Part shown: in pieces, positions 483 to 54,579 of the stretch
Position numbering within the stretch: position 1 is the stretch's first letter
How the letters are laid out: each line of letters opens with the position of its first letter
Virus record (IMG/VR): IMGVR_UViG_3300029908_000008
Origin: an uncultured virus (IMG/VR IMGVR_UViG_3300029908_000008)
Lineage: Duplodnaviria > Heunggongvirae > Uroviricota > Caudoviricetes
DNA length: 64,000 nt
Strand: one strand, 5' to 3'
Made by a program: the position numbers and the translations under genes
Notes under the pieces: generated by a model
Seen by the model: only the letters and a program-made list of their open reading frames with translations
What the model was told of the DNA's origin: nothing
The model's database searches: none

Positions 483-728
483 CTATAACGTAAGCGTAGA
501 TTTTATTGTTTTTAAATATTCTGGACAATGAGGATGATATAATATTAGTTCTGTAGATCTAAAAGAATATGGTGCATTGCTTACCTGATAAAGGTCATAT
601 ATTTTGCTATATCCAGTAATTCTTCCCCTAAAATAAAGCATGTCATATGTAGAACTTAGATGGCTTGGCACATCAATTGCCATCACAATATCTCCAATTT
701 TAAAGTTTGGTATTTTATCATTTTTCAT
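483..728 (-). CDS. CPEYLK-tail family small protein
   Basis: FKIGD start motif, HCPEYLK tail. Confidence 0.85.
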   Translation of the reverse strand: MKNDKIPNFKIGDIVMAIDVPSHLSSTYDMLYFRGRITGYSKIYDLYQVSNAPYSFRSTELILYHPHCPEYLKTIKSTLTL

Positions 729-972
729 TGTTTTGTAATTTTAAATATTCTGGACAAATATTTGCTCCGGCAAGCCAACTTACATCCGCGCCGAAGATTT
801 TGCCAATACGCGCTTTATTGCCGCCAATGATACTATCCTGCTCTAATCTAATTTGATAGTCAATTCCTTCCCTCTTGAGTATCGTCACATCAACTGGATC
901 AATAGGTTCTTTATCTGAAAAAAGATTATTTATTAATTTGTATTGTTTACCTACTTCAAATATTCTGGACAA
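718..972 (-). CDS. CPEYLK-tail family small protein (start uncertain, TTG inside upstream repeat)
   Basis: FEVGK start, ICPEYLK tail. Confidence 0.7.
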   Translation of the reverse strand: MSRIFEVGKQYKLINNLFSDKEPIDPVDVTILKREGIDYQIRLEQDSIIGGNKARIGKIFGADVSWLAGANICPEYLKLQNNEK

Positions 973-1133
973 ATCGCACTCCTTAATTTTATTTCTGATA
1001 TTCTAATATTAACAAAATGAATATTATTAACATCATATACTTCGCAGTAGTTTTGCGCATAGTTGATTTTAATAATGAATCCACGTACATCAACCAGTGC
1101 AATATCCACATAATCACCTGTTTTAAATCTCAT
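951..1133 (-). CDS. CPEYLK-tail family small protein
   Basis: MRFKTGD...ICPEYLK. Confidence 0.85.
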   Translation of the reverse strand: MRFKTGDYVDIALVDVRGFIIKINYAQNYCEVYDVNNIHFVNIRISEIKLRSAICPEYLK

Positions 1134-1342
1134 TGTTTTAAATATTCTGGACAATTCTTAATTTTATATTTAATCCAACAACGATCATAAATTATATCAC
1201 TAGCATTGGGGTTACTTAAGCATTTTGAAAGATAACTAAAAGAACCTATTTTTTTAATAATTCTACACACATCTCCATCTGCACCAATAGTGTTACACCT
1301 TATAACTAAATCTCCTGGTTGCAATTCATAATTAATTTTCAT
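1130..1342 (-). CDS. CPEYLK-tail family small protein
   Basis: LQPGD...NCPEYLKQ. Confidence 0.85.
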   Translation of the reverse strand: MKINYELQPGDLVIRCNTIGADGDVCRIIKKIGSFSYLSKCLSNPNASDIIYDRCWIKYKIKNCPEYLKQ

Positions 1343-1550
1343 CACTTAATCACAAAACAATCCTCTGGCAAAAATCTACATAAATAAATCAGTTCCTCTT
1401 TCGACCATTCTTGATATCCACCGCGACCTAATTTAAATAATACGAATCTTGCGCTAATCGCTTCTACAGTAAAAATAGTACTAGAAGTACCGAACGTCAT
1501 TTCATCGCCGCTTTTCAATAATGAAATTTTACTTTTTGATTCTTCATATG

Positions 1551-1907
1551 TTAACATAAATTATTTTCTATAATCTCCACACATTTAAATATTTTGCCTG
1601 CCATATAGGCATTACTCAATGAATCCGGTAATTTTAAAACCACATCCATATTCGGGTAGTATTCCGTGTTAATTAATTCGCATTTTGCTTCAAACTCTAT
1701 TGGAATAATATTTTTCTTTTTTAATGGTTTAATTCCAATAATATCTAAATCAGAAAAATTAAATATTGACCAATTATCATACTGTAATCTTAATGATAGA
1801 TTATGTGTGTTAGTATCAATAAACGCCTCTTTTGGAATTGTATAAATTTTTCCGTTTAATGAAAAGGCAGTTGCATCCGATATTGTAGATTGTTCGTAAT
1901 TATTCAT
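1551..1907 (-). CDS. hypothetical protein
   Basis: 118-aa ORF overlapping its neighbours. Confidence 0.7.
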   Translation of the reverse strand: MNNYEQSTISDATAFSLNGKIYTIPKEAFIDTNTHNLSLRLQYDNWSIFNFSDLDIIGIKPLKKKNIIPIEFEAKCELINTEYYPNMDVVLKLPDSLSNAYMAGKIFKCVEIIENNLC

Positions 1908-2104
1908 AAGTATTTTGGTTTTTGTATATTTTGAACTTTAAGTGAACCAATATTAATAGCATCTTCTAAAGTTTTTTTATCCAAATGAAATATTTTAGCA
2001 TCTTCTAATCTTGTAAAAATAGAATAATCATTTACAACACATGTAAGTTTATAAAACTCGTGGGTTAATACATTATAAAATTCTTTACCAATTCTAAATT
2101 TCAT
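1904..2104 (-). CDS. CPEYLK-tail family small protein (KPKYL variant)
   Basis: MKFRIGK...KPKYL. Confidence 0.8.
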   Translation of the reverse strand: MKFRIGKEFYNVLTHEFYKLTCVVNDYSIFTRLEDAKIFHLDKKTLEDAINIGSLKVQNIQKPKYL

Positions 2105-2360
2105 CTATTGTAACTTCTGTGACCTCCGAAATCTCTATCAGAACATATTTGTCATCAACAATATCAACAGCAAAACTATAATCACAATCTTCACAAATAT
2201 GAGGTGCATGGCGATTAACATCATACATCACATCATTTGGTGCAGGATTATCGCCTTCGCCTGGGAAATCAAAGTACCGCAATAAACAATCGCCACTTTT
2301 TGTTTGAGCATCAATTTCCTTTTTACATTTCGGACATTTTAAAATCACCGTATCGTACAT
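2094..2360 (-). CDS. CxxC zinc-ribbon hypothetical protein
   Basis: CPKC and CEDC pairs. Confidence 0.7.
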   Translation of the reverse strand: MYDTVILKCPKCKKEIDAQTKSGDCLLRYFDFPGEGDNPAPNDVMYDVNRHAPHICEDCDYSFAVDIVDDKYVLIEISEVTEVTIDEI

Positions 2361-2558
2361 ACCATATTATTTAATCAACTCCTTATTGTAAATATATTTT
2401 TCATATGAAATCGGCACACAATATATATTTCCATTAGTGCCATCGCGTGGGATTGGATATTGAATGGAGTTTTTGTCTCTCATTATCTCGATGTATCCGT
2501 TTGGTATTTCGTCACCAAAAGGTACAGCAATCATAGGAATGGGAATTTTATTCATAAC

Positions 2559-3205: not shown

Positions 3206-3439
3206 TTATTTTCCTTTCAGATATTTTGGAAAATTAGATGCTACCATTACTAACTCATCTTCATCAACATCTAAATATTTATACGTCAATTCATTAAAAA
3301 ATTCATGATTTAACACTTTAATTGTGAAATAAATATCTGACATTTCTATTACATAACACAACTTGCCAACTAAAGAACCATTCCAACAAGGTGTTGCAAA
3401 TTTATACTTTGAGTTAATCTTTAAATAATCTTTCCTCAT
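3206..3439 (-). CDS. CPEYLK-tail family small protein
   Basis: FPKYLK tail; LVGKLC core shared with 40340 gene. Confidence 0.8.
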   Translation of the reverse strand: MRKDYLKINSKYKFATPCWNGSLVGKLCYVIEMSDIYFTIKVLNHEFFNELTYKYLDVDEDELVMVASNFPKYLKGK

Positions 3440-3666
3440 TTTAAATATTCTGGACAATTCTTAATACGTGTGTTAAGCCATTCTTCTAGAGCAAACCATT
3501 CTGTATTCATATTATAACCCGCAAAAGGTTCTAATAATTTTATTTTATATTCTCCTATTGCTCTTGTTCCTACAATTTGACAACAACAGGCAGGCCCAAT
3601 TATTTTATTGCTGACTAAATCTTGAATTAAATAAACCTTATCTCCTATTTTAAATTTGTTATTCAT
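3436..3666 (-). CDS. CPEYLK-tail family small protein
   Basis: MNNKFKIGD...NCPEYLK. Confidence 0.85.
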   Translation of the reverse strand: MNNKFKIGDKVYLIQDLVSNKIIGPACCCQIVGTRAIGEYKIKLLEPFAGYNMNTEWFALEEWLNTRIKNCPEYLK

Positions 3667-3668
3667 TT

Positions 3669-3932
3669 TTATTTCAAATATTCTGGACAATACGACAACG
3701 ATATATCTATACATTTAGTGTCGTATAGTGAGGCATCATTCACTAATTTTCTTATGTATTCCGCTAGAACTGCCTCAACTCCATGGCAACCATAATCATT
3801 TTCAAATGCATAATCACTTCTTCCTAGGGCATCAATTGTTGGATTTTCATACTTTACTAATAATCTTTGACTACCAGTATCATAAATACCTACCGGTTTT
3901 CCTGCATGTATTGTGGCAAATAATCTATTCAT
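3669..3932 (-). CDS. unrelated domain carrying CPEYLK tail
   Basis: no FKIGD motif; ends YCPEYLK. Confidence 0.8.
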   Translation of the reverse strand: MNRLFATIHAGKPVGIYDTGSQRLLVKYENPTIDALGRSDYAFENDYGCHGVEAVLAEYIRKLVNDASLYDTKCIDISLSYCPEYLK

Positions 3933-4690: not shown

Positions 4691-4920
4691 TTATTTCTCC
4701 TTTGTTTTTAAATATTCTGGACAATGAGGATGATATAATGTTAATTCTGTATATCTAAAATAATATGATGTATTACTTACCTCATAAAGGCCATATTTTT
4801 TGCTATATGCAATAATTTCCCCCTAGAATAACGCATGTTATTTATACGACTTAGATAATCTGGTGAAGTTACCATCACAATATCTCCAATTTTAAAGTTT
4901 TGCGTTATATCATTTTTCAT
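4691..4920 (-). pseudogene. frameshifted paralogue of 483..728
   Basis: MKNDITQNFKIGD... one base short at AGGGGGAAA; downstream frame ends YHPHCPEYLKTKEK. Confidence 0.8.
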
Positions 4921-4927
4921 TGTTTTA

Positions 4928-5146
4928 TCATTTTAAATATTTCGGGCAATTTATGGGCAAATATTTATTCCAGTAATCACTACACATTGTCGTACCATGA
5001 AATGAGCCAACTGGTAGATTAGGAAAAATACTTCTAATAATCTTTACACAATATGTGTCATCTGAATTTAATTTTATAATTTGTATTATATATCCAGGAT
5101 GCGATGCGTGTTCAAAACAATCACCTATTTTATATTCATTAATCAT
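4928..5146 (-). CDS. CPEYLK-tail family small protein
   Basis: YKIGD...NCPKYLK. Confidence 0.85.
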   Translation of the reverse strand: MINEYKIGDCFEHASHPGYIIQIIKLNSDDTYCVKIIRSIFPNLPVGSFHGTTMCSDYWNKYLPINCPKYLK

Positions 5147-5418
5147 TTTCTTAAATACTCTGGATAATTTACAGATTTTAAACTAAAATGAGAACAATCA
5201 AATTTTATATTGTTTAAATTTTTTACAATATAATTATAATTTCCAAATTTTGAATCTCTTACATATACATAACCATTCATTAATGGTTTATCTTTAATAC
5301 GATCTCTAATTTCAATTATTTCACCGAATTCTTGATCTTTATTTTTATTCATTATAAAAACTTTATCTCCAATTTTAAATAATGGCTCATCTATATTTAA
5401 TTCAGATACTTTGGGCAT
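5143..5418 (-). CDS. CPEYLK-tail family small protein (start uncertain)
   Basis: FKIGD...YPEYLRK. Confidence 0.75.
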   Translation of the reverse strand: MPKVSELNIDEPLFKIGDKVFIMNKNKDQEFGEIIEIRDRIKDKPLMNGYVYVRDSKFGNYNYIVKNLNNIKFDCSHFSLKSVNYPEYLRK

Positions 5419-5918
5419 TTTTTCCACCTTGGAATATCGCATTTAAAAACATCTAACAGATTATAATCCTCTTTATTACTGCTATATTTCTCATGGGTAA
5501 TAGTTTTACGAATACCTATGATATTACGATGATGGCTATTCCTTGATAAGTGCCATTGAAAAATACGGTCATATGCCATCATGTTTGCCGCTAAATTTAT
5601 ATTAATCATTAGAATCTTTGGATTCCACGAGTCATTCTTAGGATCATATTCATCAACATTAACAGCCGATTTTATATCATACGAATATCCCATATTATTC
5701 CATGGGCAAAATTTTGAATCTAAATACCCTATTCGATTTAGTCGTTTATTTTCTTTAGAATCTGGAAATTCTACATAAACTGATTCATTGTTAATTTTGT
5801 TAATTATTTTTCTATGATTATAAACTTTAAAATTATAAAATTTACCATTAATTCTCATTTTATTAGTAAGGGCACATCTGCTAAAAAGATTATGTAATGT
5901 GAGTATTTCTGGATTCAT
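5397..5918 (-). CDS. larger unrelated protein carrying CPKYL tail
   Basis: 173 aa, ends KCPKYLN. Confidence 0.8.
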   Translation of the reverse strand: MNPEILTLHNLFSRCALTNKMRINGKFYNFKVYNHRKIINKINNESVYVEFPDSKENKRLNRIGYLDSKFCPWNNMGYSYDIKSAVNVDEYDPKNDSWNPKILMININLAANMMAYDRIFQWHLSRNSHHRNIIGIRKTITHEKYSSNKEDYNLLDVFKCDIPRWKKCPKYLN

Positions 5919-9603: not shown

Positions 9604-9846
9604 TTATTGTTTTAAATATTCTGGACAATTAAACCTGAGTAAATATAAAAACTCTGATCCTACATCTTCTGTATGGTTATCTTCAAACATTACAGTATAA
9701 CTATAATTATTTAATACTTTTGTCACTCGGCATTTATGCAGGTATCTTTTAGATAAATCTGGCAAATAAACTTGCCAATAAACTTGCTGAAGTTTATTAT
9801 TACCATATGTAAATATGACTTCATCACCTATTTTAAAATTTTTCAT
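9604..9846 (-). CDS. CPEYLK-tail family small protein
   Basis: MKNFKIGD...NCPEYLKQ. Confidence 0.85.
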   Translation of the reverse strand: MKNFKIGDEVIFTYGNNKLQQVYWQVYLPDLSKRYLHKCRVTKVLNNYSYTVMFEDNHTEDVGSEFLYLLRFNCPEYLKQ

Positions 9847-9848
9847 AA

Positions 9849-10040
9849 TTATTGTTTTAAATATTCTGGACAATTTTTAAATAGATGCAGATCGTAATCT
9901 GAAAAAAGTATTTCAGTATTATCTTCAAATTTTACCATATAACTATTATTTCTAATTTTTATAACAATACCAATCTGCATTTTATATTTATTTCCATATA
10001 GATTTATAACTCTGTTTCCAACTTTAAACCTAGTGTTCAT
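9849..10040 (-). CDS. CPEYLK-tail family small protein
   Basis: FKVGN...NCPEYLKQ. Confidence 0.85.
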   Translation of the reverse strand: MNTRFKVGNRVINLYGNKYKMQIGIVIKIRNNSYMVKFEDNTEILFSDYDLHLFKNCPEYLKQ

Positions 10041-11059: not shown

Positions 11060-11293
11060 TTAATTATTTTTTAAATATTGTGGTTTTTCTGATGATTTTC
11101 TATCTATAATATCATCAGAAAGCAGACTCTGCCATGATAGAGTACATATATGATAACTATAATTGTTAATATTTGCATTATCATATAATTCAAATGGCAT
11201 ACAAACACACTTTGTGTTAATAATTTTACAACATATCCATATTTTAAAATGTTGCCATATAATATTTTTAGGATAATTGTAAAATTTCTTCAT
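11060..11293 (-). CDS. small protein with KPQYLK tail
   Basis: C-terminal KPQYLKNN. Confidence 0.7.
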   Translation of the reverse strand: MKKFYNYPKNIIWQHFKIWICCKIINTKCVCMPFELYDNANINNYSYHICTLSWQSLLSDDIIDRKSSEKPQYLKNN

Positions 11294-14778: not shown

Positions 14779-15030
14779 TTTATTTTTGATGAGATTTTCT
14801 ACTATTTAAATATTCTGGACAATTATTAGGAATATATAATTTGAATTGTTTTTCAAACATACCTTTTGATATCATATAGTGATCTCTGGTGTTAAACACA
14901 TTTTTATATTTAACACAAAATATTGTGATAAAACAAACTTTAACAATTAAAGTTGTTTTAATTTTACTAACATAAACTTCGCCTGGATTGTGATCATGAT
15001 AAGTATTTTGGTTTCACATTAAATTCATAT
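14779..15030 (-). pseudogene. degenerate CPEYLK-family gene plus orphan KPKYLS tail
   Basis: frame ending NNCPEYLNS lacks an in-frame ATG; remnant tail near 15000-15030. Confidence 0.55.
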
Positions 15031-15283
15031 GATTATTTTGTAAATATTCCGGATAATTATTTAAAGTAATGAAGTTGTGATCTTTTATATGAACATCAGT
15101 ATATATAAAAATATCATTTTTTGGCCAAAGATCATCATCGCTTAGCATCATAAGTGAATAATGTGTATTGCCATAAGCAACTTTTCTAATATCAACAACT
15201 TTACAATATTTTCCAACAACATGCCAACTATCACCAAATCTAACCACCATATTAATCTTTAAATCGTTTATAGTTATAATCAT
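15014..15283 (-). CDS. CPEYLK-tail family small protein
   Basis: YPEYLQ tail. Confidence 0.8.
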   Translation of the reverse strand: MIITINDLKINMVVRFGDSWHVVGKYCKVVDIRKVAYGNTHYSLMMLSDDDLWPKNDIFIYTDVHIKDHNFITLNNYPEYLQNNHMNLM

Positions 15284-15284
15284 T

Positions 15285-15473
15285 TTATTTCGCTAGTAAA
15301 TATTCTGGACAATCAAGTGTTTTGTAATATATGTCATTATAATTAAAATTTATGAAAACATTATGAATTTCAACAGTAACTTTATTAAGATAAAAACTTT
15401 TAATAATACCAACACAACCTCTAAATTTAGATATGCCTCCAACTCTAATTTTATCATTTATTTTATATTTCAT
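15285..15473 (-). CDS. CPEYLK-tail family small protein
   Basis: YKIND...DCPEYLL. Confidence 0.85.
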   Translation of the reverse strand: MKYKINDKIRVGGISKFRGCVGIIKSFYLNKVTVEIHNVFINFNYNDIYYKTLDCPEYLLAK

Positions 15474-15664
15474 AATAATTTTAAATATTCTGGACAATCA
15501 ATTAATATAAACGACTCTATGCGACCGAAGCATTTTATGTCATCTCCAATCTTTATATAATAATATTCAGAAGATCTCTGACCTAAATAAGTACCTATTA
15601 ATCCGGCTAACGATGATGGATATTTTATTCTCACAATATCATTGTTTTTAAGTTTTCTTTTCAT
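15470..15664 (-). CDS. CPEYLK-tail family small protein
   Basis: DCPEYLKLL tail. Confidence 0.85.
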   Translation of the reverse strand: MKRKLKNNDIVRIKYPSSLAGLIGTYLGQRSSEYYYIKIGDDIKCFGRIESFILIDCPEYLKLL

Positions 15665-15926
15665 TTATTTTTAAATACTCTGGTAAATCATTAAATAATC
15701 GTAAGTATTCGGCACATGATACTAAATTACTACCAATTTTATAATATGAATCATAATTCTTTATGATTTTAATTTTAAAATTAAAATTTCCATATCTTTC
15801 ATTATTAAAATGATAATTTCCATTTCTGCGGTCTATTATTTCAATAATTTCAACTAAATAAATTCCATATTCTCTAAAAATTACTTTATCGCCAATATTA
15901 AATTTTGGATAATCAATGTTATTCAT
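15648..15926 (-). CDS. CPEYLK-tail family small protein
   Basis: FNIGD...LPEYLK. Confidence 0.85.
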   Translation of the reverse strand: MNNIDYPKFNIGDKVIFREYGIYLVEIIEIIDRRNGNYHFNNERYGNFNFKIKIIKNYDSYYKIGSNLVSCAEYLRLFNDLPEYLKINEKKT

Positions 15927-15930
15927 TATT

Positions 15931-16173
15931 TTATTGTTTTAAATATTCCGGACAATTTAACTTTGACATGTATCTAATGGCAAAGTCTATTTCAAGATCT
16001 ATCCAATGTAAAATATTAGATTTTTCAACCTTAATTATTATTTTTAAACTAGCATCATAAAGTTTGTCTCTTCTGTCAACTATAGAACTGATTTTTCCAA
16101 TTGCATAATTTTCATTATATCTATATTTTATGATATCTCCGATTGAATATTTGGGCGAGTCAATGTTATTCAT
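15931..16173 (-). CDS. CPEYLK-tail family small protein
   Basis: YSIGD...NCPEYLKQ. Confidence 0.85.
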   Translation of the reverse strand: MNNIDSPKYSIGDIIKYRYNENYAIGKISSIVDRRDKLYDASLKIIIKVEKSNILHWIDLEIDFAIRYMSKLNCPEYLKQ

Positions 16174-16396: not shown

Positions 16397-16678
16397 TTAA
16401 TTTTGGTTTTTTGATAATTTTTGTAGCCATGATTTTAAATTATAGTTTTTATTTTTATTGGTATTTTTCAGATATTTTGGTTTTTTAATTGTTTTATATG
16501 ATTGTAAATCATATTTATAAGTTACTACTTCTTCAATAATCAGAACATTTAATTCATCATTCTTATGTAGTTCTATTCTACATAAATCATCTACAAATGG
16601 AATTTCAGTTGTGCCAATAAACCTGCCAATCTGACCTGTAGAAATAATCTTTACTAATTTACCTTTATATAGTATCAT
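16397..16678 (-). CDS. CPEYLK-tail family small protein
   Basis: KPKYLK, then reads through the promoter motif. Confidence 0.75.
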   Translation of the reverse strand: MILYKGKLVKIISTGQIGRFIGTTEIPFVDDLCRIELHKNDELNVLIIEEVVTYKYDLQSYKTIKKPKYLKNTNKNKNYNLKSWLQKLSKNQN

Positions 16679-16682
16679 TATT

Positions 16683-16910
16683 TTATTGTTTTAAATATTC
16701 TGGACAATTTTGGTGAATCTTTATAACATTATCTCTATGAATCATATGATATCCAGATTGTTCAAAATATGGAACTTTTACATCACAAAAATGTAAAATT
16801 ATTATATCGCAACAGTCATGTTGTACAATTGCAAATTGCCCAATATATTCTGTATAATTTGAAAAAACTATTTTAATTTTTTCACCTTTTTTAAATTTAA
16901 AATCTTTCAT
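16683..16910 (-). CDS. CPEYLK-tail family small protein
   Basis: FKKGE...NCPEYLKQ. Confidence 0.85.
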   Translation of the reverse strand: MKDFKFKKGEKIKIVFSNYTEYIGQFAIVQHDCCDIIILHFCDVKVPYFEQSGYHMIHRDNVIKIHQNCPEYLKQ

Positions 16911-17137
16911 TGTATCAAATATGTTGGTTTTGGATTATAAATACGATACCAGTTTTCGGTCAATGTGACTCCATACTGTAGGTTATTTACAAAAATAGCA
17001 TGCTCATCTAGTAATTTGGCTGAAATACTACCATCTTCTATTCCATAATTAATTACGACAAATAATATGTTCTGAAATTCTGGAGCGCCATTTAATTCAT
17101 TGCTAATAATAATATCGCCAGGTTTAAATTTATTCAT
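16907..17137 (-). CDS. CPEYLK-tail family small protein
   Basis: FKPGD...KPTYLIQ. Confidence 0.85.
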   Translation of the reverse strand: MNKFKPGDIIISNELNGAPEFQNILFVVINYGIEDGSISAKLLDEHAIFVNNLQYGVTLTENWYRIYNPKPTYLIQ

Positions 17138-17324
17138 TGTTTTTCAAATATTTTGGTTTCGGTATTGTAATTAATTTAAGATTATCTTCATTCATCCGAA
17201 GCCAACCATGACCACTTTGATTATTTAATAATATAATATCATAAATATATGTGTGGTTGTTATCTATTGGGTGAATTATTGCGCGAACTATACCTTTATA
17301 TAATGCGCCTCTGGAGCAAACCAT
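17130..17324 (-). CDS. CPEYLK-tail family small protein (5'-truncated paralogue of 17341 gene)
   Basis: shares MNEDNLKLITIPK. Confidence 0.7.
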   Translation of the reverse strand: MVCSRGALYKGIVRAIIHPIDNNHTYIYDIILLNNQSGHGWLRMNEDNLKLITIPKPKYLKNNE

Positions 17325-17340
17325 AACATAATCACCAAGT

Positions 17341-17538
17341 TTATTTTTTTAAATATTTCGGTATTGTAATTAATTTAAGATTATCTTCATTCATCCAAAA
17401 CCAGCCATGATGTTTTGATAAAATAATCTCATAATTTTTTATACGATTATTGTCTATTGTACGAACTATACCTTCTTCAAATATACTTCTTGGCTTATTC
17501 CTAACTCTAACATAATCGCCAGGTTTAAATTTATTCAT
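17341..17538 (-). CDS. CPEYLK-tail family small protein
   Basis: FKPGD...IPKYLKK. Confidence 0.85.
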   Translation of the reverse strand: MNKFKPGDYVRVRNKPRSIFEEGIVRTIDNNRIKNYEIILSKHHGWFWMNEDNLKLITIPKYLKK

Positions 17539-17836
17539 TGTTTTTTAAATATTTCGGACAATCTATATCAATATTATACCCAAGATTTCGGAGATTTTCT
17601 AATGTTATCTTCCTATAATCTTCATAATCCTCAAATAACGGCTCATCTGAACCAATTATCATTTCAATTGCATAAATAATATTATAATTATGGTTATATT
17701 TTAATTCTTTTAATAAAAAAGGTAAAATATTTGGCCCAAGATTTATAATATTCTGGTAATGAAAATCTAGATACGTCATACATGATTGTTTAATCCATAT
17801 ATTATAATGATAATAAAATTTTTCAGATAAAGTCAT
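17531..17836 (-). CDS. helical unrelated domain carrying CPKYLK tail
   Basis: YQNIINLGPNILPFLLKEL; ends DCPKYLK. Confidence 0.8.
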   Translation of the reverse strand: MTLSEKFYYHYNIWIKQSCMTYLDFHYQNIINLGPNILPFLLKELKYNHNYNIIYAIEMIIGSDEPLFEDYEDYRKITLENLRNLGYNIDIDCPKYLKNNE

Positions 17837-17892
17837 AATTTTCACTGTTTGAACTCTGCGCAAAAACAATTATACAATAAATAATATTGTTT

Positions 17893-18102
17893 TCATAATT
17901 GTTTTAAATATTTCGGACAATCTGGAATAATTACTTCAAATTCACTGATTGTTACTGGATAACAATAGATTTCATTATTAATTTCTATATCAAAACAATT
18001 TTTAGAATAAACAGAAACATAATTAATTCTGCCAATTTTACCTATGATATTTTGAAATTTACATATTAAAACTTTAATTTTAGTACCTCTAACTAGTTTC
18101 AT
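17893..18102 (-). CDS. CPEYLK-tail family small protein
   Basis: DCPKYLKQL tail. Confidence 0.85.
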   Translation of the reverse strand: MKLVRGTKIKVLICKFQNIIGKIGRINYVSVYSKNCFDIEINNEIYCYPVTISEFEVIIPDCPKYLKQL

Positions 18103-18307
18103 TTTGTAAATATCTTGGGCATTTTTTTTGAATATATTTTTTCAAACATGAAGGAAATACAGATGCGAGTGTTCTATTTTTATTAAAGTATCTCACATCA
18201 TACATGTAGGAATATATTGGAGAACTGGCTTTATACACTATTACACACAAATCATTTTTGTAATTGCAACAGATCTCGCCTATTTCATATTCTTGTTCAT
18301 GATTCAT
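18089..18307 (-). CDS. CPEYLK-tail family small protein
   Basis: YEIGE...KCPRYLQ. Confidence 0.85.
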   Translation of the reverse strand: MNHEQEYEIGEICCNYKNDLCVIVYKASSPIYSYMYDVRYFNKNRTLASVFPSCLKKYIQKKCPRYLQNETS

Positions 18308-18585
18308 GATTTTAACAAATATTCTGGACAATTATCAATTGGCACATGTAAATATGAAATTCCTTTATAATCTCTATACATTGAGTAAATATCTGATAAA
18401 TTGTATATTTTGTTTATATTATTTATTGAATAATTAGATTTAACACAACGCATAAAATTATCATAACTGCCAATATATATTTCATTACTCAAATGCATTA
18501 AATTAAGCGCTACAGAATTAGTGAATAATCCATTAGAACGTTCAACAATAATTTGTTTTTTACTCCTCATTATATAAATTGTCAT
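18304..18585 (-). CDS. unrelated domain carrying CPEYL tail
   Basis: ends NCPEYLLKS. Confidence 0.8.
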   Translation of the reverse strand: MTIYIMRSKKQIIVERSNGLFTNSVALNLMHLSNEIYIGSYDNFMRCVKSNYSINNINKIYNLSDIYSMYRDYKGISYLHVPIDNCPEYLLKS

Positions 18586-18770: not shown

Positions 18771-18870
18771 ATTAAATATCCTGAACAATACATGATTTTA
18801 TATAAGAATTATTAATCTAATAAAGCCGTAGTGCAACCATCTAATCTATAGTAACGATAATTTTAATTCG

Positions 18871-21957: not shown

Positions 21958-21960
21958 AAT

Positions 21961-24497: not shown

Positions 24498-24507
24498 TAA
24501 CTTTTAT

Positions 24508-36476: not shown

Positions 36477-36665
36477 TTAATTAAGATAATGAGGTTTTCC
36501 TTTTGAAACATTTAAGTGACTCACACTAATATAGCCATATTCATAATCCTCTCCATAAAATCCTAAAGTTATTCTATTATCTATTTTATTTAAAATAGCA
36601 GTTTTCCAACCATTATAATAAACTATATCACCTATTTTTAAATTCTCAAATTGTTTTATTGTCAT
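36477..36665 (-). CDS. CPEYLK-tail family small protein
   Basis: LKIGD...KPHYLN. Confidence 0.85.
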   Translation of the reverse strand: MTIKQFENLKIGDIVYYNGWKTAILNKIDNRITLGFYGEDYEYGYISVSHLNVSKGKPHYLN

Positions 36666-36895
36666 ATTGTTTTTAAATATTCTGGACAATTATTTATTAA
36701 TGCAAAACTTTTTAAAAATTTAATTGGAAATATTAAATTAACATATTCCGCTTTATAAAATATTATTGAAGGTGTGAGAGTTAAAGTAAAATCACTATCA
36801 TTAATGTTTATAATTATAGCACGTGCAAACACAAAATGTTCATTCCATGTGCCGTCATTCTTAAAATATACTTTGTCAAACAATTTAAAATTCAT
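36662..36895 (-). CDS. CPEYLK-tail family small protein
   Basis: FKLFD...NCPEYLK. Confidence 0.85.
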   Translation of the reverse strand: MNFKLFDKVYFKNDGTWNEHFVFARAIIININDSDFTLTLTPSIIFYKAEYVNLIFPIKFLKSFALINNCPEYLKTI

Positions 36896-38612: not shown

Positions 38613-38852
38613 CTAATTATAGTTTTTATTTTTATTGGTATTTTTTAAATATTCTGGACAATTATTTATTAAATAAGAATCATAATTAACTTCTGATTCG
38701 GTAAACATATAATATCCAGCATTAGTCAGTAATTTTGTTTTCACGGTAGAAATGCCTATTGAACAAACCTCAAAAATACTTGTTACCTGTGAATAGTAAG
38801 TGAGTCTAATGTGATCTCCAATCTTAATGTTATTATTATGCCTATCTCTCAT
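38613..38852 (-). CDS. CPEYLK-tail family small protein
   Basis: IKIGD...NCPEYLK. Confidence 0.85.
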   Translation of the reverse strand: MRDRHNNNIKIGDHIRLTYYSQVTSIFEVCSIGISTVKTKLLTNAGYYMFTESEVNYDSYLINNCPEYLKNTNKNKNYN

Positions 38853-38854
38853 TA

Positions 38855-39037
38855 TTATTTTATATAATTCGGCTTATTGTTTAAATGTCTGCATTCTTCT
38901 AAATAAAAACACATTGTATGCTCTTCTATATTGATAATTTTATTTACAGAATCATAATCTTTAACTGTGCCAATAAAATTATTTATCATAATGATACGGG
39001 AATTAATTACAATTTTTTGGCCTTTTTTAAATTTCAT
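38855..39037 (-). CDS. CPEYLK-tail family small protein
   Basis: FKKGQ...KPNYIK. Confidence 0.8.
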   Translation of the reverse strand: MKFKKGQKIVINSRIIMINNFIGTVKDYDSVNKIINIEEHTMCFYLEECRHLNNKPNYIK

Positions 39038-39285
39038 TATCTTAAATATTTTGGAATATTTTTTATCATTCTCATATATTTTAAATTGCTAATATTATAA
39101 ATAATAGTATAATTTTTATCATATGTTAGAGTATTTATTCTTATAGGATCGATTAATTCAACTGTATATGTATGGGAATAGGAATTAAATTCGACGATTG
39201 TACATCTTGCAAGTCTGAACTCTTTAGGCCATACTTGACTGTTATCATCAAAGTAAATTTGATCGCCAATTTTATAATTAAACAT
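39037..39285 (-). CDS. CPEYLK-tail family small protein
   Basis: YKIGD...IPKYLR. Confidence 0.85.
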   Translation of the reverse strand: MFNYKIGDQIYFDDNSQVWPKEFRLARCTIVEFNSYSHTYTVELIDPIRINTLTYDKNYTIIYNISNLKYMRMIKNIPKYLR

Positions 39286-40339: not shown

Positions 40340-40570
40340 TTATTTATACAGATATTTTGGACATTTAAGATCTACTTTAGTAAAACTTGTAAAATAATCC
40401 AAAGGCAAACTTAAGATGGTGCCCGTTTCGTAAGGAAAACCAAATTCTAACAATTTAATTGTGAATATTTCGTCATTAATACTTTTAACAGCACATAATT
40501 TGCCAACTAAGTTATCAACCCAATCACCTTTATTTAAACGTAAAATATCGCCAATTTTAAATTCTTTCAT
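40340..40570 (-). CDS. CPEYLK-tail family small protein
   Basis: FKIGD...KCPKYLYK. Confidence 0.85.
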   Translation of the reverse strand: MKEFKIGDILRLNKGDWVDNLVGKLCAVKSINDEIFTIKLLEFGFPYETGTILSLPLDYFTSFTKVDLKCPKYLYK

Positions 40571-40800
40571 AATAAATATTGAGGTTTTTTATTGCAGATG
40601 AATAAATGTTTGGCATGATCGGCGAAAATAAAAATATATTGTATTCTATAATTTATTTCGTTTGAATGCAACAATCCTAAAAATTGATCTGGAAAAATTT
40701 CTAGTATCTCAAAAAATTTATTATTGAACTCTTCTATCCAAACATTACTATTATTAGATGTATGAACAAAATCTCCAACTTTTAAATTATTAAAAATTAA
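40567..40800 (-). pseudogene. CPEYLK-family frame lacking a canonical start codon
   Basis: LKVGDFV...KKPQYLL*, no ATG. Confidence 0.6.
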
Positions 40801-42065: not shown

Positions 42066-42314
42066 TCATTCTAAATCTTCATTTTTAATTTTTTCATTGA
42101 TTTTTAAATATTCTGGACAATTATTTATTAATGTAATGTATTTTTCTGTTGCTGGGTATGTGACCCGATTAAATATTTTTCCATTAGATTTAATTACTTG
42201 GATGCTATATATACCTGCGTTTAAATCAATTACACGACAAATTACATTGTTCCATAAATTGTTTGTAGGATTGACATAGCGAATTAGGTCGCCTATTTTG
42301 TATTTATAATTCAT
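42066..42314 (-). CDS. CPEYLK-tail family small protein
   Basis: YKIGD...NCPEYLK. Confidence 0.85.
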   Translation of the reverse strand: MNYKYKIGDLIRYVNPTNNLWNNVICRVIDLNAGIYSIQVIKSNGKIFNRVTYPATEKYITLINNCPEYLKINEKIKNEDLE

Positions 42315-42523
42315 GATTGTTTTAAATATTCTGGACAATTAAAATTAACTTTTCTGAATATATGAGAATATATCGTGAACCATCCTACTTCTCGATCCAA
42401 TAAATCAAAACAATAATCTCCGTTCTTCACGTTCATGAAACGGATTCAAACCACCACATTATAAAAAGATTTCATACAACCGCCTGCACCAAGAATTACT
42501 AAGTCACCTTTTTTATATTTCAT
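42311..42523 (-). pseudogene. CPEYLK-family gene with a single in-frame TGA
   Basis: MKYKKGDLV...NVVV*IRF...NCPEYLKQS. Confidence 0.75.
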
Positions 42524-42738
42524 ATTTTTTGTTTTAAATATTCTGGACGATTATTTAATAATCTATAAAAATCTCCTGCACTAGTAAATTTATTACCGTT
42601 TTTAGAATTGCCTAAGTAATCACAAAACTCTACTATGTAAGGAAATCTAAAATTTAATTCGTCAATAGCACATATTCTAACTAAGTTAGGAAAGGAATGT
42701 GTCATAACAATATCGCCTGTTTTAAATTTATAATTCAT
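42520..42738 (-). CDS. CPEYLK-tail family small protein
   Basis: FKTGD...RPEYLKQ. Confidence 0.85.
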   Translation of the reverse strand: MNYKFKTGDIVMTHSFPNLVRICAIDELNFRFPYIVEFCDYLGNSKNGNKFTSAGDFYRLLNNRPEYLKQKI

Positions 42739-42968
42739 GATTGTTTTAAATATTCTGGACAATTATGTAATAATCTTAAATTTTTTCCATAATAAAAATA
42801 TTTTGTATCAGTATAAATAAGTTTTATACCATCATTAAGATTACCTGAGTATCGACAAAACTCTACCAGATAATTATTATTTAATTCATCAATAGTATGT
42901 ATCTTTAATATGGAGGGATATCCAACGGTTGAAATAACAATATCGCCTATTTTAAATTTATAATTCAT
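42735..42968 (-). CDS. CPEYLK-tail family small protein
   Basis: FKIGD...NCPEYLKQS. Confidence 0.85.
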   Translation of the reverse strand: MNYKFKIGDIVISTVGYPSILKIHTIDELNNNYLVEFCRYSGNLNDGIKLIYTDTKYFYYGKNLRLLHNCPEYLKQS

Positions 42969-43204
42969 AATTGTTTTAAATATTCTGGACAATTAAAGAT
43001 AATTAAATCTATATCTGATTGGAATGTCATCAATTGATCGCCAACTTGAAAATTTGAAATTTTTGTTAGATAATGTGTTACGCTACATAGTTTAATCCAT
43101 GCACACATATGTGTGTCAAGCGACACTATCACACCTATACATTTAGACCATTCTGCATGGTCGTTCCACCGCACATAATCACCAATTTTAAATTTAGAAC
43201 TCAT
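42965..43204 (-). CDS. CPEYLK-tail family small protein
   Basis: FKIGD...NCPEYLKQL. Confidence 0.85.
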   Translation of the reverse strand: MSSKFKIGDYVRWNDHAEWSKCIGVIVSLDTHMCAWIKLCSVTHYLTKISNFQVGDQLMTFQSDIDLIIFNCPEYLKQL

Positions 43205-47408: not shown

Positions 47409-47603
47409 CTATCTTAAATAATCTGGATATAATGATATACACCTGTATTTTTCATTAACAACTATATATTTAATGAACAGTTGATCGCCTATGCGTGGCC
47501 GAGTAAGAGTTGAATGAATAACTTCTACATGAAGAAAATTATCTTTTTCTGATACAATCTCCACAATAAGATCTAATTGTCGATGCCTATACTGTTTTTT
47601 CAT
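47409..47603 (-). CDS. CPEYLK-tail family small protein
   Basis: YPDYLR tail. Confidence 0.8.
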   Translation of the reverse strand: MKKQYRHRQLDLIVEIVSEKDNFLHVEVIHSTLTRPRIGDQLFIKYIVVNEKYRCISLYPDYLR

Positions 47604-47809
47604 TTCATATATTCTGGACAATTCCTTGGGTTTTTAATACAAATTTCATTACCATAAACGAACCATGAATCTTCTTCATATATAGATTTAACTATATATA
47701 TTTGATCATCACCAAAATTATCTGAATATGAGTCATAAACTTTAGAAGTTATTTTTCCAATAATTTCTTGATATGTCACTAGATCTCCAATTTCAAAATT
47801 ATCCTGCAT
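47600..47809 (-). CDS. CPEYLK-tail family small protein
   Basis: FEIGD...NCPEYMK. Confidence 0.85.
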   Translation of the reverse strand: MQDNFEIGDLVTYQEIIGKITSKVYDSYSDNFGDDQIYIVKSIYEEDSWFVYGNEICIKNPRNCPEYMK

Positions 47810-51711: not shown

Positions 51712-51713
51712 AT

Positions 51714-53312: not shown

Positions 53313-53342
53313 AGTCGTATTATAGTTTTTATTTTTGTTGGG
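53313..53342 (-). promoter_or_regulatory. conserved phage promoter motif
   Basis: CAACAAAAATAAAAACTATAAT-ACGACT-ATG. Confidence 0.75.
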
Positions 53343-53497
53343 ATTTTTATTTTCCCTGAAAATTTTATTAAGGTGATTTCCTTATTATTGTCGTTTGAAG
53401 AGAATTGAGTCGTATAAGAAAGTTTATCTTTCTTAGTTGGGAAATTAAGTTTTAAAAACTTATGCCCTATTATACTTTTTATTTTTGTTGAGATTTT

Positions 53498-53794
53498 TTA
53501 TTCTGAAATAATTTCTGAATTCACTCTTACTTGTTTAAGGGCTTCTTGGACTTGCTCACAATGAGCATATGTGGATTTGATGACTTCACAACTTCCTAGC
53601 GCGTCGATTTGTGTTGCGCAACTTTGAGCATAAGCCATATCACAGGGCAGTGAGATCATTAGCGTAGCAATAACCTCTAAGAAAGTCGTGGTGTCATTAT
53701 TAAACACGCGCAGGATATGATTGTCTCCTAAAGACGAAATATCGTCTATAAGAGATTGAGAAGGAGTTTGTGTAATTGTTTCTGTACTAGACAT
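53498..53794 (-). CDS. clpS: ClpS adaptor protein
   Basis: VFNNDTTTFLEVIATL...GSCEV. Confidence 0.8.
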   Translation of the reverse strand: MSSTETITQTPSQSLIDDISSLGDNHILRVFNNDTTTFLEVIATLMISLPCDMAYAQSCATQIDALGSCEVIKSTYAHCEQVQEALKQVRVNSEIISE

Positions 53795-53828
53795 GTTGGT
53801 ATTATATTTTTTATTTTTGTTGTGAAAA

Positions 53829-54059
53829 TTATTGTTTTAAATATTCTGGAATCAATTTTAATAATTGTAAGTATGCGTCACATATATCATCACATGTATA
53901 GCCATCGTGAAATTTAATTTTGTAACGCTGAGGCTTTATTTTTTTTACAATTAGGGCCTTTTTATTGTAATATTGACTTAACTTTGGCCAATTTGCTTGT
54001 TGATGTGGGCTATTACCAAATCTACATACAACTTCATCACCAATCTTAAAATTTTTCAT
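53829..54059 (-). CDS. CPEYLK-tail family small protein
   Basis: MKNFKIGD...IPEYLKQ; paralogue of 9604 gene. Confidence 0.85.
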   Translation of the reverse strand: MKNFKIGDEVVCRFGNSPHQQANWPKLSQYYNKKALIVKKIKPQRYKIKFHDGYTCDDICDAYLQLLKLIPEYLKQ

Positions 54060-54061
54060 AA

Positions 54062-54367
54062 TTATTGCTTTAAATATTCTGGACAATCATTAATAACTAT
54101 TTCCACATATTCTTTTAAAAAGATTTTATCTATACCTGGAAAAAAATTAACCTCGACACTCTTTTCTGTGATTCTAGTTATAGAACCGACTTTACTTATA
54201 AATGAGGATAATGATTCTAATGGCCCTAATTTGTAATGAATTCCAAGAATCCTTACTTTATCTCCAACTTTAAAATTTGGTATATTATACTTTTTATTTC
54301 TTTTGAGAAAATTATTTTTAATAATATTATTTTTGTTGAAAAAATTATTTTTAATAATACTCATCAT
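54062..54367 (-). CDS. CPEYLK-tail family small protein
   Basis: FKVGD...DCPEYLKQ; duplicated IIKNNF at N-terminus. Confidence 0.85.
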   Translation of the reverse strand: MMSIIKNNFFNKNNIIKNNFLKRNKKYNIPNFKVGDKVRILGIHYKLGPLESLSSFISKVGSITRITEKSVEVNFFPGIDKIFLKEYVEIVINDCPEYLKQ

Positions 54368-54579
54368 AATTTGTTATTGTTTAAATATTCTGGACTCTTC
54401 AATAAATAAAACCATTCCGGCTTACAATTACTATTGGGGAATTTTGACTTAAACATCACAACATAATATGGTTGGTTACTGTATTTATCGTGTTTTACAA
54501 TTTTGCCTACCTCACCATGATATGTGGGATTTGGTGTTAAATGATTAAATTTTATAATATCTCCAATTTTAAAATCCAT
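54364..54579 (-). CDS. CPEYLK-tail family small protein
   Basis: FKIGD...SPEYLN. Confidence 0.85.
   Translation of the reverse strand: MDFKIGDIIKFNHLTPNPTYHGEVGKIVKHDKYSNQPYYVVMFKSKFPNSNCKPEWFYLLKSPEYLNNNKL

What the first reader, a model, noticed from the sequence alone, without database searches (positions are those of the whole stretch)
483..54579. Large cassette-like family of hypervariable small genes sharing a C-terminal CPEYLK tag
Seen: about 66 ORFs in the track (mostly 60-100 aa), plus several more read by hand, end in (C/K/x)P(E/K/x)YL(K) at or near the stop. Most begin with (F/Y/L)K(I/V)GD, a KOW/SH3-like first strand, but their middles are mostly unalignable. They lie head-to-tail on one strand in arrays (483-1345, 3206-3932, 4691-5918, 14779-19092, 20120-20716, 21763-24497, 30352-32160, 42066-43204, 53829-54579) between ordinary phage genes. 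Inference: a modular system of variable small barrel domains with a constant tag, such as a docking, packaging or conjugation signal for a common partner, possibly a diversified anti-defence or host-binding repertoire. I do not recognise it as a described system.
Basis: partly seen in the sequence, partly recalled or inferred. Interest (0 to 1): 0.95.

Follow-up and report, generated by a model that had tools for sequence, protein, structure and literature searches.

The report
Phage mini-barrel gene family, shared tail
An uncultured peat phage devotes about a quarter of this 64-kb stretch to some 70 fast-diverging copies of one tiny barrel-shaped protein that all end in the same short peptide, which also sits on a few unrelated proteins and so looks like a shared handle whose partner is still unknown.

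Summary
At least 67 minus-strand ORFs end in [C/I/Y/K]-P-x-Y-L-[K/R]. The motif is 59-fold enriched in the last 20 residues, and only 1 of 118 plus-strand control ORFs has it.

The middles are not unalignable. With the tag cut off, 51 of 67 match a body-only HMM, against 0 of 59 untagged controls. AlphaFold models give an SH3/Tudor/KOW-like barrel.

I first suspected a DNA signal read through by ORFs. That reading failed:
- the tag is read in one frame;
- it stays with the last gene of an array;
- among 53 DNA-ascertained copies, P/Y/L codon changes are 15 synonymous to 5 non-synonymous (p=8e-7).

A -1 frameshift idea also failed its controls.

The tail is not only a barrel cap. At least 6 full-length proteins with non-barrel bodies carry it in frame. 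Best reading (0.42): a birth-and-death family of variable binding barrels with a transferable constant peptide handle. A purely structural cap remains a strong rival (0.3).

Fifty of 67 tags fit the P-x-F/Y-L-R/K core of the FtsZ C-terminal docking peptide, but 0 of 67 fit the full consensus. That is a lead only.

No Pfam, PHROG or deposited-phage match. Similar smaller arrays recur in other large phages.

The parts
483..1342 (-). array of 4 tagged genes (3 barrels plus f718, a non-barrel body with CPEYLK)
1904..2104 (-). single ORF ending KPKYL; no body-HMM match, doubtful member
3206..3932 (-). array of 3 (2 barrels plus f3669, an 87-aa non-barrel body with CPEYLK)
4691..4920 (-). frameshifted (net -4 nt) copy of 483-728 with its tag DNA intact: decaying paralog
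4928..5918 (-). array of 3 (2 barrels plus f5397, a 173-aa non-barrel protein ending KKCPKYLN)
9604..10040 (-). 2 barrel genes
11060..11293 (-). single ORF ending KPQYLKNN, no body-HMM match
14779..16173 (-). array of 5 barrels (15014-16173) plus a further tag at 14821 that my ORF rules dropped
16397..19092 (-). largest array: 10 tagged genes (8 barrels plus non-barrel f17531 and f18304) and 16397-16678, whose tag is followed by a read-through of the promoter-like motif
20120..20531 (-). 1 barrel plus a broken copy (20120-20349 in two frames)
21763..23087 (-). array of 5 tagged genes plus the CPEYFK variant at 22863-23087
23605..24497 (-). 2 barrels, a truncated copy (23838-24071), and f24282 (Cys-rich N-terminus with strand 5 and tag); 233-nt tandem duplication
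25189..25350 (-). ORF ending KKPLYL; doubtful member
26110..26619 (-). 1 barrel (26307-26516) plus 2 doubtful or short tagged ORFs
30352..32121 (-). array of 7 barrels, including a dispersed 81%-identical copy of the 233-nt unit
36477..36895 (-). 2 barrels
38613..39285 (-). 3 barrels
40340..40674 (-). 1 barrel plus a 35-aa tagged fragment
42066..43204 (-). array of 4 barrels plus a 41-aa tagged fragment; source of the first AlphaFold model (42735-42968)
47409..47809 (-). 1 barrel (CPEYMK) plus 1 tagged ORF without a body match (YPDYLR)
53829..54579 (-). array of 3 barrels next to the ClpS-like gene

Best explanation
This is a lineage-specific multigene family that gains and loses copies, in a ~162-kb, 28% GC uncultured phage with T4-like RNA-repair genes. 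Each typical member is one small SH3-like beta-barrel. It has a conserved first strand (F-K-I-G-D-x-V), variable loops with 44-69 residues between the end motifs, and a fifth strand (L-x-L-L). The fifth strand is followed directly by a constant C-terminal peptide, [C/I/Y/K]-P-x-Y-L-[K/R], and then 1-12 variable residues. Shown: the arrays grow by tandem duplication of whole genes and decay by frameshifts. Shown: the tail is kept by selection on the peptide, not on the DNA. Shown: it also terminates several proteins inside the arrays whose bodies are not the barrel. Inferred: the tail is a transferable functional handle recognised by one common partner, of phage or host. The barrels are a diversified set of binding modules, made from the promoters that drive this small-gene region, that bring different targets to that partner or are themselves brought to one place by it. 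The partner and the targets are unknown.
For: One homologous family: 51 of 67 in one BLASTP network. With tags removed, 51 of 67 match a body-only HMM at E<=0.01, including 8 of the 24 not used to build it, against 0 of 59 untagged ORFs. Fold: two AlphaFold models (pLDDT 77 and 87) give five strands plus a one-turn helix over E-Y-L-K. VIA Z is 5-7.1 to SH3, PWWP, KOW, Tudor, R67 DHFR and YorP barrels. The profile also hits proteins with 3-10 tandem SH3-like repeats. Peptide-level selection: the tag is read in one frame in 51 of 53 DNA-ascertained copies. P/Y/L codon changes are 15 synonymous to 5 non-synonymous where 22% synonymous is expected (p=8e-7). The 5 exceptions are a chance hit in the S21 gene, two decayed copies, L>M and L>F. 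Internal control: the promoter-like DNA motif starts outside ORFs in 15 of 22 copies. The tag travels with its own gene: 20 barrels keep it with no tagged gene following within 40 nt, and 15 barrels have no tagged gene ending within 40 nt upstream. Portability: f3669, f5397, f17531, f18304, f24282 and f718 have canonical tags but no body-HMM match. hhalign aligns only their last 8-23 residues in the 5 of 6 tested; f718 was not tested. Only 2 stray out-of-frame tag remnants exist. The tail is an add-on: the tandem-repeat relatives end their repeats with an ELELV-type fifth strand and no tag. Wider family: 26 of 26 fetched short homologues not encoded in the window carry the tag, 23 of them at <=39% identity or with no BLASTP hit to a window member. 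Turnover: a 233-nt unit occurs in 3 copies at 86% and 81% identity, there is a frameshifted copy, and dN/dS is 0.38-0.97 in five paralog pairs.
Against: No partner was identified, so the handle function is inference. The tail follows strand 5 at fixed spacing with no flexible linker and is modelled as ordered (pLDDT 76-80), as expected of a structural element. Conserved Y and L with a variable x also fit a helical cap. The non-barrel carriers all lie inside arrays: 10 of 16 are followed by a barrel against 11 of 95 untagged genes. They could therefore be chimeras that kept the 3' end of a destroyed barrel gene; f24282 and f18304 also keep strand-5-like residues. Tag codons are somewhat more uniform than the background: CCT is 2 of 63 against 25% in the same dipeptide context, and CCG is over-represented. 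Some nucleotide-level effect or recent common descent is therefore not excluded. dS from NG86 is unreliable at 28% GC. There is no evidence of expression.
Confidence: 0.42

Rival explanations
1. Structural cap only. The tail is an ordinary part of this family's fold, a short C-terminal turn whose Tyr and Leu close the barrel. The few non-barrel carriers are chimeric or decaying leftovers. The family is still an expanded set of binding barrels, but there is no common partner.
For: Fixed spacing after strand 5 with >=97% column occupancy. Ordered tail with a helical turn in two models, pLDDT 76-80. A variable x between invariant P, Y and L. The variable 1-12 residue extension after the tag argues against recognition of a free C-terminus. 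Two non-barrel carriers also keep strand-5-like residues.
Against: The tag is in frame on at least 6 full-length proteins with unrelated bodies, while only 2 out-of-frame remnants exist. Homologous tandem-repeat barrels fold, by inference, without it. Most structural alignments to known barrels end at model residues 66-72, before the tag.
Confidence: 0.3
2. FtsZ-tail mimic, a special case of the handle reading. The tail imitates the conserved C-terminal peptide of FtsZ and docks the proteins onto FtsA, ZipA, SepF or MinC-type partners, either to disturb division or to use the divisome as a platform.
For: The published consensus is D/E-I/V-P-X-F/Y-L-R/K (Introduction passage of bioRxiv 10.1101/2023.08.29.555414). 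The E. coli tail read from the genome is ...DIPAFLRKQAD. 50 of 67 tags fit P-x-[FY]-L-[RK], against 0 of 95 untagged ORF tails and a composition-based expectation of 6.6e-4 per tail. Both peptides lie near a C-terminus, are followed by a short variable tail, and form a short helix (PMC3983244 passages).
Against: 0 of 67 fit the full seven-position consensus and only 5 of 67 have I/V before the Pro. There is no disordered linker before the tag. The host and its FtsZ are unknown. The match was noticed after the fact and covers four positions. No binding test was possible.
Confidence: 0.12
3. Nucleic-acid signal at gene junctions. The 18-25 nt sequence would be a promoter, a translation re-initiation element or a recombination site for the downstream gene, and its translation as CPEYLK would be incidental.
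For: 19 exact 18-mers. Conservation runs on to the next ATG, 0-14 nt away in most junctions. Tag codons are more uniform than the background. The only nucleotide similarity between the window and the related contig L007 lies at tags, junctions and promoter motifs. 36 of 51 barrels have a tag just upstream.
Against: One reading frame in 51 of 53 copies. Mismatches follow codon structure, 15 synonymous to 5 non-synonymous in the P/Y/L codons. Degenerate tags keep P-x-Y-L with different DNA. 26 of 67 tags have no barrel downstream and 15 of 51 barrels have no tag upstream. No RNA structure. Much of the codon skew is explained by dipeptide context and A-richness before start codons.
Confidence: 0.05
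4. Programmed -1 frameshift. T_TTA_AAA inside the tag is a slippery heptamer in phase, and shifting would fuse each barrel to the next to make multi-barrel chains.
For: The heptamer is exact in 31 of 57 junctions. In 16 of those 57 junctions the heptamer is exact, the next gene is in the -1 frame, and that frame is open up to its ATG. Multi-repeat SH3-like proteins exist elsewhere.
Against: The next gene is in the -1 frame in 35 of 57 family junctions against 26 of 59 non-family junctions (p=0.067). Exact heptamers are no commoner where the next gene is in the -1 frame (18 of 35) than where it is not (13 of 22). The same heptamer occurs in phase 34 more times elsewhere in ORFs. There is no downstream structure: mean z is -0.02.
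Confidence: 0.03

Closest known systems
T4 early proteins GoF, MotB.1 and Frd.2 ('LSm-like fold' family; Kim et al. 2025, PMC12152347, abstract read)
   Same: Small, uncharacterised proteins of T4-type phages, predicted by AlphaFold to share an SH3/LSm-like barrel despite dissimilar sequences.
   Different: Three genes rather than about 70. No shared C-terminal peptide is described in the abstract. No sequence match: tblastn of one member against 50,697 phage records found nothing at E<=0.01. RNA-related function is suggested there and was not examined here.
SH3-like small beta-barrels (KOW of NusG/Spt5, Tudor, PWWP, chromo, R67 DHFR, SPbeta YorP)
   Same: Five-strand barrel, with a G-D turn after strand 1 and a turn before strand 5. 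VIA Z is 5-7.1 and Foldseek probability 0.98-1.0 at E~0.1.
   Different: No member reaches any Pfam gathering score. The P-x-Y-L tail lies beyond the part that aligns with most of these domains.
Proteins with 3-10 tandem SH3-like repeats (Pfam DUF1918, SH3_15, NHase_beta_C, KOW hits) found by the profile search
   Same: The same first-strand signature (FK[IV]GD.V) and an ELELV-type fifth strand.
   Different: The repeats are joined in one polypeptide by acidic linkers and lack the tag. Here each barrel is a separate gene ending in the tag.
PeSL regulatory cassettes of T4-type phages (Arbiol et al. 2010, PMC2839356, abstract read; PMC4122927, listing only)
   Same: Short conserved sequences recurring between small non-essential genes, at which recombination shuffles and duplicates genes. 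Here conserved junctions and a 233-nt tandem duplication are seen.
   Different: PeSLs are intergenic promoter plus stem-loop terminators. The tag is coding, read in one frame, under peptide-level selection, and unstructured. The window has a separate promoter-like motif.
FtsZ conserved C-terminal peptide (consensus D/E-I/V-P-X-F/Y-L-R/K)
   Same: The core P-x-aromatic-L-basic near a C-terminus, followed by a short variable tail and forming a short helix.
   Different: The first two consensus positions are not kept (0 of 67 full matches). No disordered linker. Binding untested.
Smaller SH3-like paralog arrays noted earlier by this scan in other large phages (e1-5382638, e1-4143907, e1-5987592, e1-235149; unchecked AI notes)
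   Same: Tandem, fast-diverging mini-barrel genes with fixed ends. One note reports a tail shared with unrelated proteins.
   Different: 10-41 copies there against at least 67 in 64 kb here. The tail peptides differ. None of those claims was checked here.

Membership tests
SH3-like small beta-barrel fold | five antiparallel strands forming a closed barrel, with a short turn before strand 5 | tested here: met
   AlphaFold models, pLDDT 77 and 87; VIA Z 5-7.1 to many SH3-like barrels
KOW motif (Pfam PF00467 and the SPT5 KOW families) | score above the Pfam gathering threshold | tested here: not met
   0 of 59 members reach any Pfam cut-off; best is KOW5_SPT5 at E=0.039, 13.9 bits against a cut-off of 27
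Tudor/PWWP 'royal' domains | Pfam threshold; aromatic cage for methylated ligands | tested here: inconclusive
   Best hit 53-BP1_Tudor at 18 bits against a cut-off of 22. Fold matches at Z 5-6.6. The aromatic cage was not examined.
T4 GoF/MotB.1/Frd.2 LSm-like family | detectable sequence or profile relationship to the T4 proteins | tested here: not met
   tblastn of one member against all deposited phages, with no match at E<=0.01. Only one query was used, and fold-level likeness was not compared directly.
PeSL cassette | intergenic sigma70-like promoter followed by a stem-loop terminator | tested here: not met
   The tag lies inside ORFs in one frame. Mean folding z is +0.41 around the tag against -0.09 for random windows.
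Promoter or start signal of the downstream gene | present upstream of the genes it serves, whatever lies upstream, with the reading frame free | tested here: not met
   15 of 51 barrels lack a tag upstream and 26 of 67 tags have no barrel downstream. The frame is fixed and mismatches follow codon structure.
-1 programmed frameshift site | slippery heptamer X_XXY_YYZ in phase | tested here: met
   T_TTA_AAA is exact in 31 of 57 junctions
-1 programmed frameshift site | downstream stimulatory structure, and association of the heptamer with an open -1 frame into a product | tested here: not met
   Mean z -0.02 downstream. Exact heptamer in 18 of 35 junctions with the next gene in the -1 frame against 13 of 22 with other frames. 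34 further in-phase copies elsewhere.
FtsZ conserved C-terminal peptide | core P-X-F/Y-L-R/K near the C-terminus, followed by a short variable tail | tested here: met
   50 of 67 tags; 0 of 95 untagged ORF tails; 1-12 residues after the motif
FtsZ conserved C-terminal peptide | full consensus D/E-I/V-P-X-F/Y-L-R/K | tested here: not met
   0 of 67; I/V before the Pro in 5 of 67
FtsZ conserved C-terminal peptide | binds FtsA, ZipA, SepF or MinC | not testable with these tools

The most novel reading that the evidence does not exclude
The constant tail is a mimic of the FtsZ C-terminal docking peptide. The phage would then field some 70 different mini-barrels that all plug into the host's FtsZ-tail receptors (FtsA, ZipA, SepF or MinC type). 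That would either jam cell division or use the divisome and membrane tether as a common platform for many different cargo-binding modules. More generally, large phages may build arrays of SH3-like barrels, each equipped with a peptide copied from a host hub protein.
Probability: 0.12. Interest if true: 0.85.

Novelty: new variant of a known kind. Interest (0 to 1): 0.62.

Why it matters
Phage genomes are compact, so spending about a quarter of a 64-kb region (at least 67 of about 162 ORFs) on one fast-diverging family implies strong and changing selection. That is typical of host-takeover or counter-defence functions. The family has a fixed scaffold, variable loops and a transferable peptide under peptide-level selection, which makes it a natural library of binders with a built-in handle. 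Finding the handle's partner would assign a role to dozens of 'hypothetical' genes at once. It may also explain the similar arrays that keep turning up in other large phages. The partial likeness to the FtsZ tail gives one concrete hypothesis that can be tested at the bench.

Tried and rejected
1. Tag as a promoter or DNA motif read through by ORFs. This was my first idea, from the MSRIF alternative-frame ORFs. Rejected.

2. -1 frameshifting at T_TTA_AAA. Rejected by the controls.

3. Conserved RNA structure at junctions. None found (the shuffles preserved mononucleotide composition only).

4. Codon uniformity as proof of DNA-level selection. It weakened once dipeptide context and A-richness before start codons were taken into account.

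5. Exact 18-mer scan of IMG/VR. It returned 6 single chance matches in ~40% GC contigs and no relatives.

6. The search for related loci in viral contigs with the MoxR-like protein and with P0128. Nothing. The alignment A2 was too variable for that tool.

7. Word-indexed homologue search. It returned only the window's own proteins.

8. blastn of 24500-30300 and tblastn of one member against deposited phages. No match. The MoxR-like protein finds only distant jumbo phages, at <=45% identity over 43% of its length.

9. Foldseek against the PDB. No hit at E<=0.001.

10. ESM Atlas. Only anonymous phage barrels, scores below 0.9.

11. Homodimer prediction of one member. No verdict, score 0.00, which counts neither way.

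12. RNA evidence. Two metatranscriptome runs hold only a 0.10 share of the words. The peat habitat rests on run labels only.

13. TAG recoding suggested by the tRNA(CUA). The longest ORFs do not change when TAG is read through.

14. Literature. 'CPEYLK' occurs in 0 papers. Three searches for phage paralog families and one for phage FtsZ-tail mimics gave no precedent; only the listings were viewed.

15. Ma & Margolin 1999 (PMC94211) is not held.

Full report
**Setting.** The window is 24-36% GC, mostly 25-30%. Almost every gene is on the minus strand. Proteins it encodes occur on a public contig of 162,305 bases. No whole genome is held for it.

The larger genes point to a large tailed phage with T4-like RNA-repair functions:
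- RNA ligase 1 (43894-44967), an RNA_ligase-family protein (19089-20123) and polynucleotide kinase/phosphatase (41088-41954);
- a MoxR-like AAA protein and a VWA/metallopeptidase protein (50233-53312);
- a ClpS-like protein (53498-53794) and a sigma factor (49352-49918);
- ribosomal protein S21 (33466-33663), peptide deformylase (23054-23608) and an RF-1-domain protein (20709-21056);
- a SpoU methylase, a ZIP transporter and a dNMP kinase.

No deposited phage is close. Runs labelled peat metagenome hold the DNA.

- P[EK]YL occurs 59 times in minus-strand frames and once on the plus strand.
- The 18-mer TGTCCAGAATATTTAAAA has 53 matches with up to 3 mismatches, all on the minus strand.
- A tag-anchored list gives 67 ORFs in 20 clusters.
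- P-x-Y-[LIM] is 59-fold enriched in the last 20 residues of ORFs, and 1 of 118 plus-strand ORFs has it there.
- My list is conservative. It misses at least the tags at 14821 and 35346, a CPEYFK variant (22863-23087) and 16397-16678.

**Is it a DNA signal or a peptide?** I first suspected a DNA signal, for three reasons. Neighbouring ORFs that start 'MSRIF' are the same DNA read in another frame. Conservation runs past the stop codon to the next ATG. The tag codons are more uniform than the background, with Pro CCR in 61 of 63 (p=4e-11) and Leu TTA in 47 of 61, whereas the N-terminal K-I-G-D motif uses Gly codons 10/9/8.

Further tests went the other way.
- The tag is read in one frame in 51 of 53 copies.
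- It stays with its own gene. 20 barrels keep it although no tagged gene follows within 40 nt, and 15 barrels have no tagged gene ending within 40 nt upstream.
- A true DNA motif in the same window behaves differently. The promoter-like CAAY-AAAAATAAAAAGTATAAT has 22 copies, 15 of which start outside any ORF, and 16 of which end 5-9 nt before an ATG.
- Part of the codon skew is context. Pro before E/K/D/N is already 64% CCA in the background, and genes that abut a downstream start have A-rich third positions and 65% TTA.
- The cleanest test used the 53 copies found purely at the DNA level. Changes in the P, Y and L codons are 15 synonymous to 5 non-synonymous, where 22% synonymous is expected (p=8e-7). 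The five exceptions are a chance hit inside the S21 gene, the two copies with no long ORF upstream, and L>M and L>F.
- There is no RNA structure around the tag.

Selection therefore acts on the peptide.

**A frameshift idea, tested and dropped.** In the tag's frame, TAT TTA AAA contains T_TTA_AAA, a slippery heptamer in phase, and the -1 frame often runs into the next gene. The controls do not support function:
- the next gene is in the -1 frame in 35 of 57 family junctions and 26 of 59 non-family junctions (p=0.067);
- exact heptamers are no commoner where the next gene is in the -1 frame (18 of 35) than elsewhere (13 of 22);
- the heptamer occurs in phase 34 more times inside other ORFs.

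There is also no downstream structure.

**What the proteins are.** Pfam and PHROGs give nothing significant, only faint Tudor, SH3 and KOW hints. The members are nevertheless one family.
- 51 of 67 form one BLASTP network.
- With the tag cut off, 51 of 67 match a body-only HMM at E<=0.01, including 8 of the 24 not used to build it. None of 59 untagged ORFs match.
- An exhaustive profile search found 552 proteins at E<=0.001. They are of two kinds. Long proteins with 3-10 tandem SH3-like repeats carry DUF1918, SH3_15, NHase_beta_C and KOW signatures. Short single-domain proteins match the whole profile.
- Of 42 short ones fetched, 26 are not encoded in the window. All 26 carry the tag, and 23 of them have <=39% identity or no BLASTP hit to any window member.
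- The tandem-repeat relatives share the first strand and an ELELV-type fifth strand but have no tag. The tag is therefore an addition specific to this phage group.
- Two AlphaFold models (mean pLDDT 77 and 87) show five strands and a short turn before strand 5. A coil and a one-turn helix over E-Y-L-K follow, with tail pLDDT 76-80 against about 90 for the barrel.
- Structural neighbours are SH3-like barrels of many kinds at Z 5-7.1.
- The conservation profile alternates as a barrel should. Loop lengths vary, with 44-69 residues between the end motifs, and 1-12 residues follow the tag.

**Dynamics.**
- A 233-nt unit, one gene long, is present in tandem at 86% identity and again 6.7 kb away at 81%.
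- The copy at 4691-4920 is a frameshifted paralog of 483-728. Other truncated copies lie at 20120-20349, 23838-24071 and 42311-42436.
- dN/dS in five paralog pairs is 0.38-0.97, with dS of 0.15-1.2. NG86 is unreliable at this base composition.
- A related 6.2-kb metagenome contig (L007) has the same tag DNA and promoter motif. It shares nucleotide similarity with the window only at those short motifs.

Sixteen tagged ORFs fail the body-only HMM. Four are fragments and three have doubtful tags. Six are full-length proteins with canonical tags: f3669 (87 aa), f5397 (173 aa), f17531 (101 aa), f18304 (93 aa), f24282 (71 aa, Cys-rich) and f718 (84 aa).

Profile comparison aligns only their last 8-23 residues in the five of them I tested; f718 was not tested. 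Only two out-of-frame tag remnants exist, so the tag is in frame on foreign bodies more often than relics would be.

These carriers lie inside arrays: 10 of 16 are followed by a barrel, against 11 of 95 untagged genes (p=3e-5). They may therefore have arisen by replacement of a barrel body, and two of them also keep strand-5-like residues. This favours a transferable functional peptide but does not exclude chimeric leftovers.

**A candidate for what the handle imitates.** From memory, the constrained pattern recalled the FtsZ C-terminal peptide, so I checked.
- The E. coli gene read from the genome ends ...DIPAFLRKQAD.
- Passages of PMC3983244 define residues 370-379 as the conserved core binding FtsA, ZipA and MinC, and 380-383 as a variable tail. 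They describe a short helix in the ZipA complex.
- An Introduction passage of bioRxiv 10.1101/2023.08.29.555414 gives the consensus D/E-I/V-P-X-F/Y-L-R/K.
- 50 of 67 tags fit P-x-[FY]-L-[RK], none of 95 untagged ORF tails does, and composition predicts 6.6e-4 per tail.
- However, 0 of 67 fit the full consensus and only 5 have I/V before the Pro. The tag also lacks the disordered linker of FtsZ.

This is a post-hoc, four-position match. I keep it as a lead at about 0.12.

**Verdict.** The thing itself is well supported: a very large, fast-turning-over family of SH3-like mini-barrels with a peptide-level constant tail that can sit on other bodies. How the tail works is inferred. I favour a common handle for one partner (0.42 for the whole statement) over a purely structural cap (0.30). 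The nucleic-acid readings are largely excluded.

Unchecked earlier notes of this scan suggest that smaller arrays of this kind recur in large phages. T4 has three predicted LSm/SH3-like early proteins (PMC12152347, abstract). This is therefore a new and extreme variant of a known kind rather than a new category. No supplementary files were consulted.

Noticed in passing
minus strand, e.g. 63860, 58938, 54602, 53486, 53336, 45531, 38633, 35321, 28487, 20146, 16456, 13712: A promoter-like motif, (T)CTCAAY-AAAAATAAAAAGTATAAT, has 22 copies at <=2 mismatches, all on the minus strand. The TATAAT ends 5-9 nt before an ATG in 16 of 22, so transcripts would be leaderless or nearly so. Only 19 of 158 ORFs have an SD-like sequence upstream. 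The conserved CTCAAY box sits about 12-13 nt upstream of the TATAAT, too close for a normal -35 element.
   Followed up: partly
361-434 (-): A tRNA with anticodon CUA (amber suppressor type; ARAGORN calls it tRNA-Pyl). TAG ends 14 of 158 ORFs, and reading TAG through does not lengthen the top ORFs in this window, so there is no sign of recoding here.
   Followed up: partly
33466-33663, 23054-23608, 20709-21056, 29670-30329, 49352-49918, 53498-53794 (all -): A cluster of translation and proteostasis auxiliary genes: ribosomal protein S21, peptide deformylase, an RF-1-domain (ArfB-like) protein, a SpoU methylase, a sigma factor and a ClpS-like adaptor. Together with the lack of SD sequences, this suggests the phage reshapes host translation initiation.
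   Followed up: no
38613-38852, 20120-20257, 16397-16678 (-): In three family genes the ORF runs on through the promoter-like motif, giving the extension (N/K)(T/P)NKNKNYN after the tag. In other junctions the same motif is read in another frame or lies after the stop, as expected of a DNA-level signal.
   Followed up: yes
23611-24076 and 30597-30829: A 233-nt unit, one whole family gene long, occurs twice in tandem (86% identity) and once 6.7 kb away (81%). This is recent duplication and dispersal of a single cassette.
   Followed up: partly
proteins P0006-P0013 and others: Public proteins of 180-1764 aa with 3-10 tandem SH3-like repeats share the FK[IV]GD.V first strand with this family. One (P0011) also carries a dATP/dGTP diphosphohydrolase N-terminal domain. 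Their origin is not known to me.
   Followed up: no
22199-22498 (-): One tagged member (99 aa, weak body-HMM match at E=0.0033) starts with a hydrophobic, transmembrane-like segment. At least one barrel may therefore be membrane-anchored.
   Followed up: no
L007:382-2523: The related contig encodes a 713-aa protein between family genes that has no tblastn match in the window. The two contigs are therefore either different regions or different repertoires.
   Followed up: no
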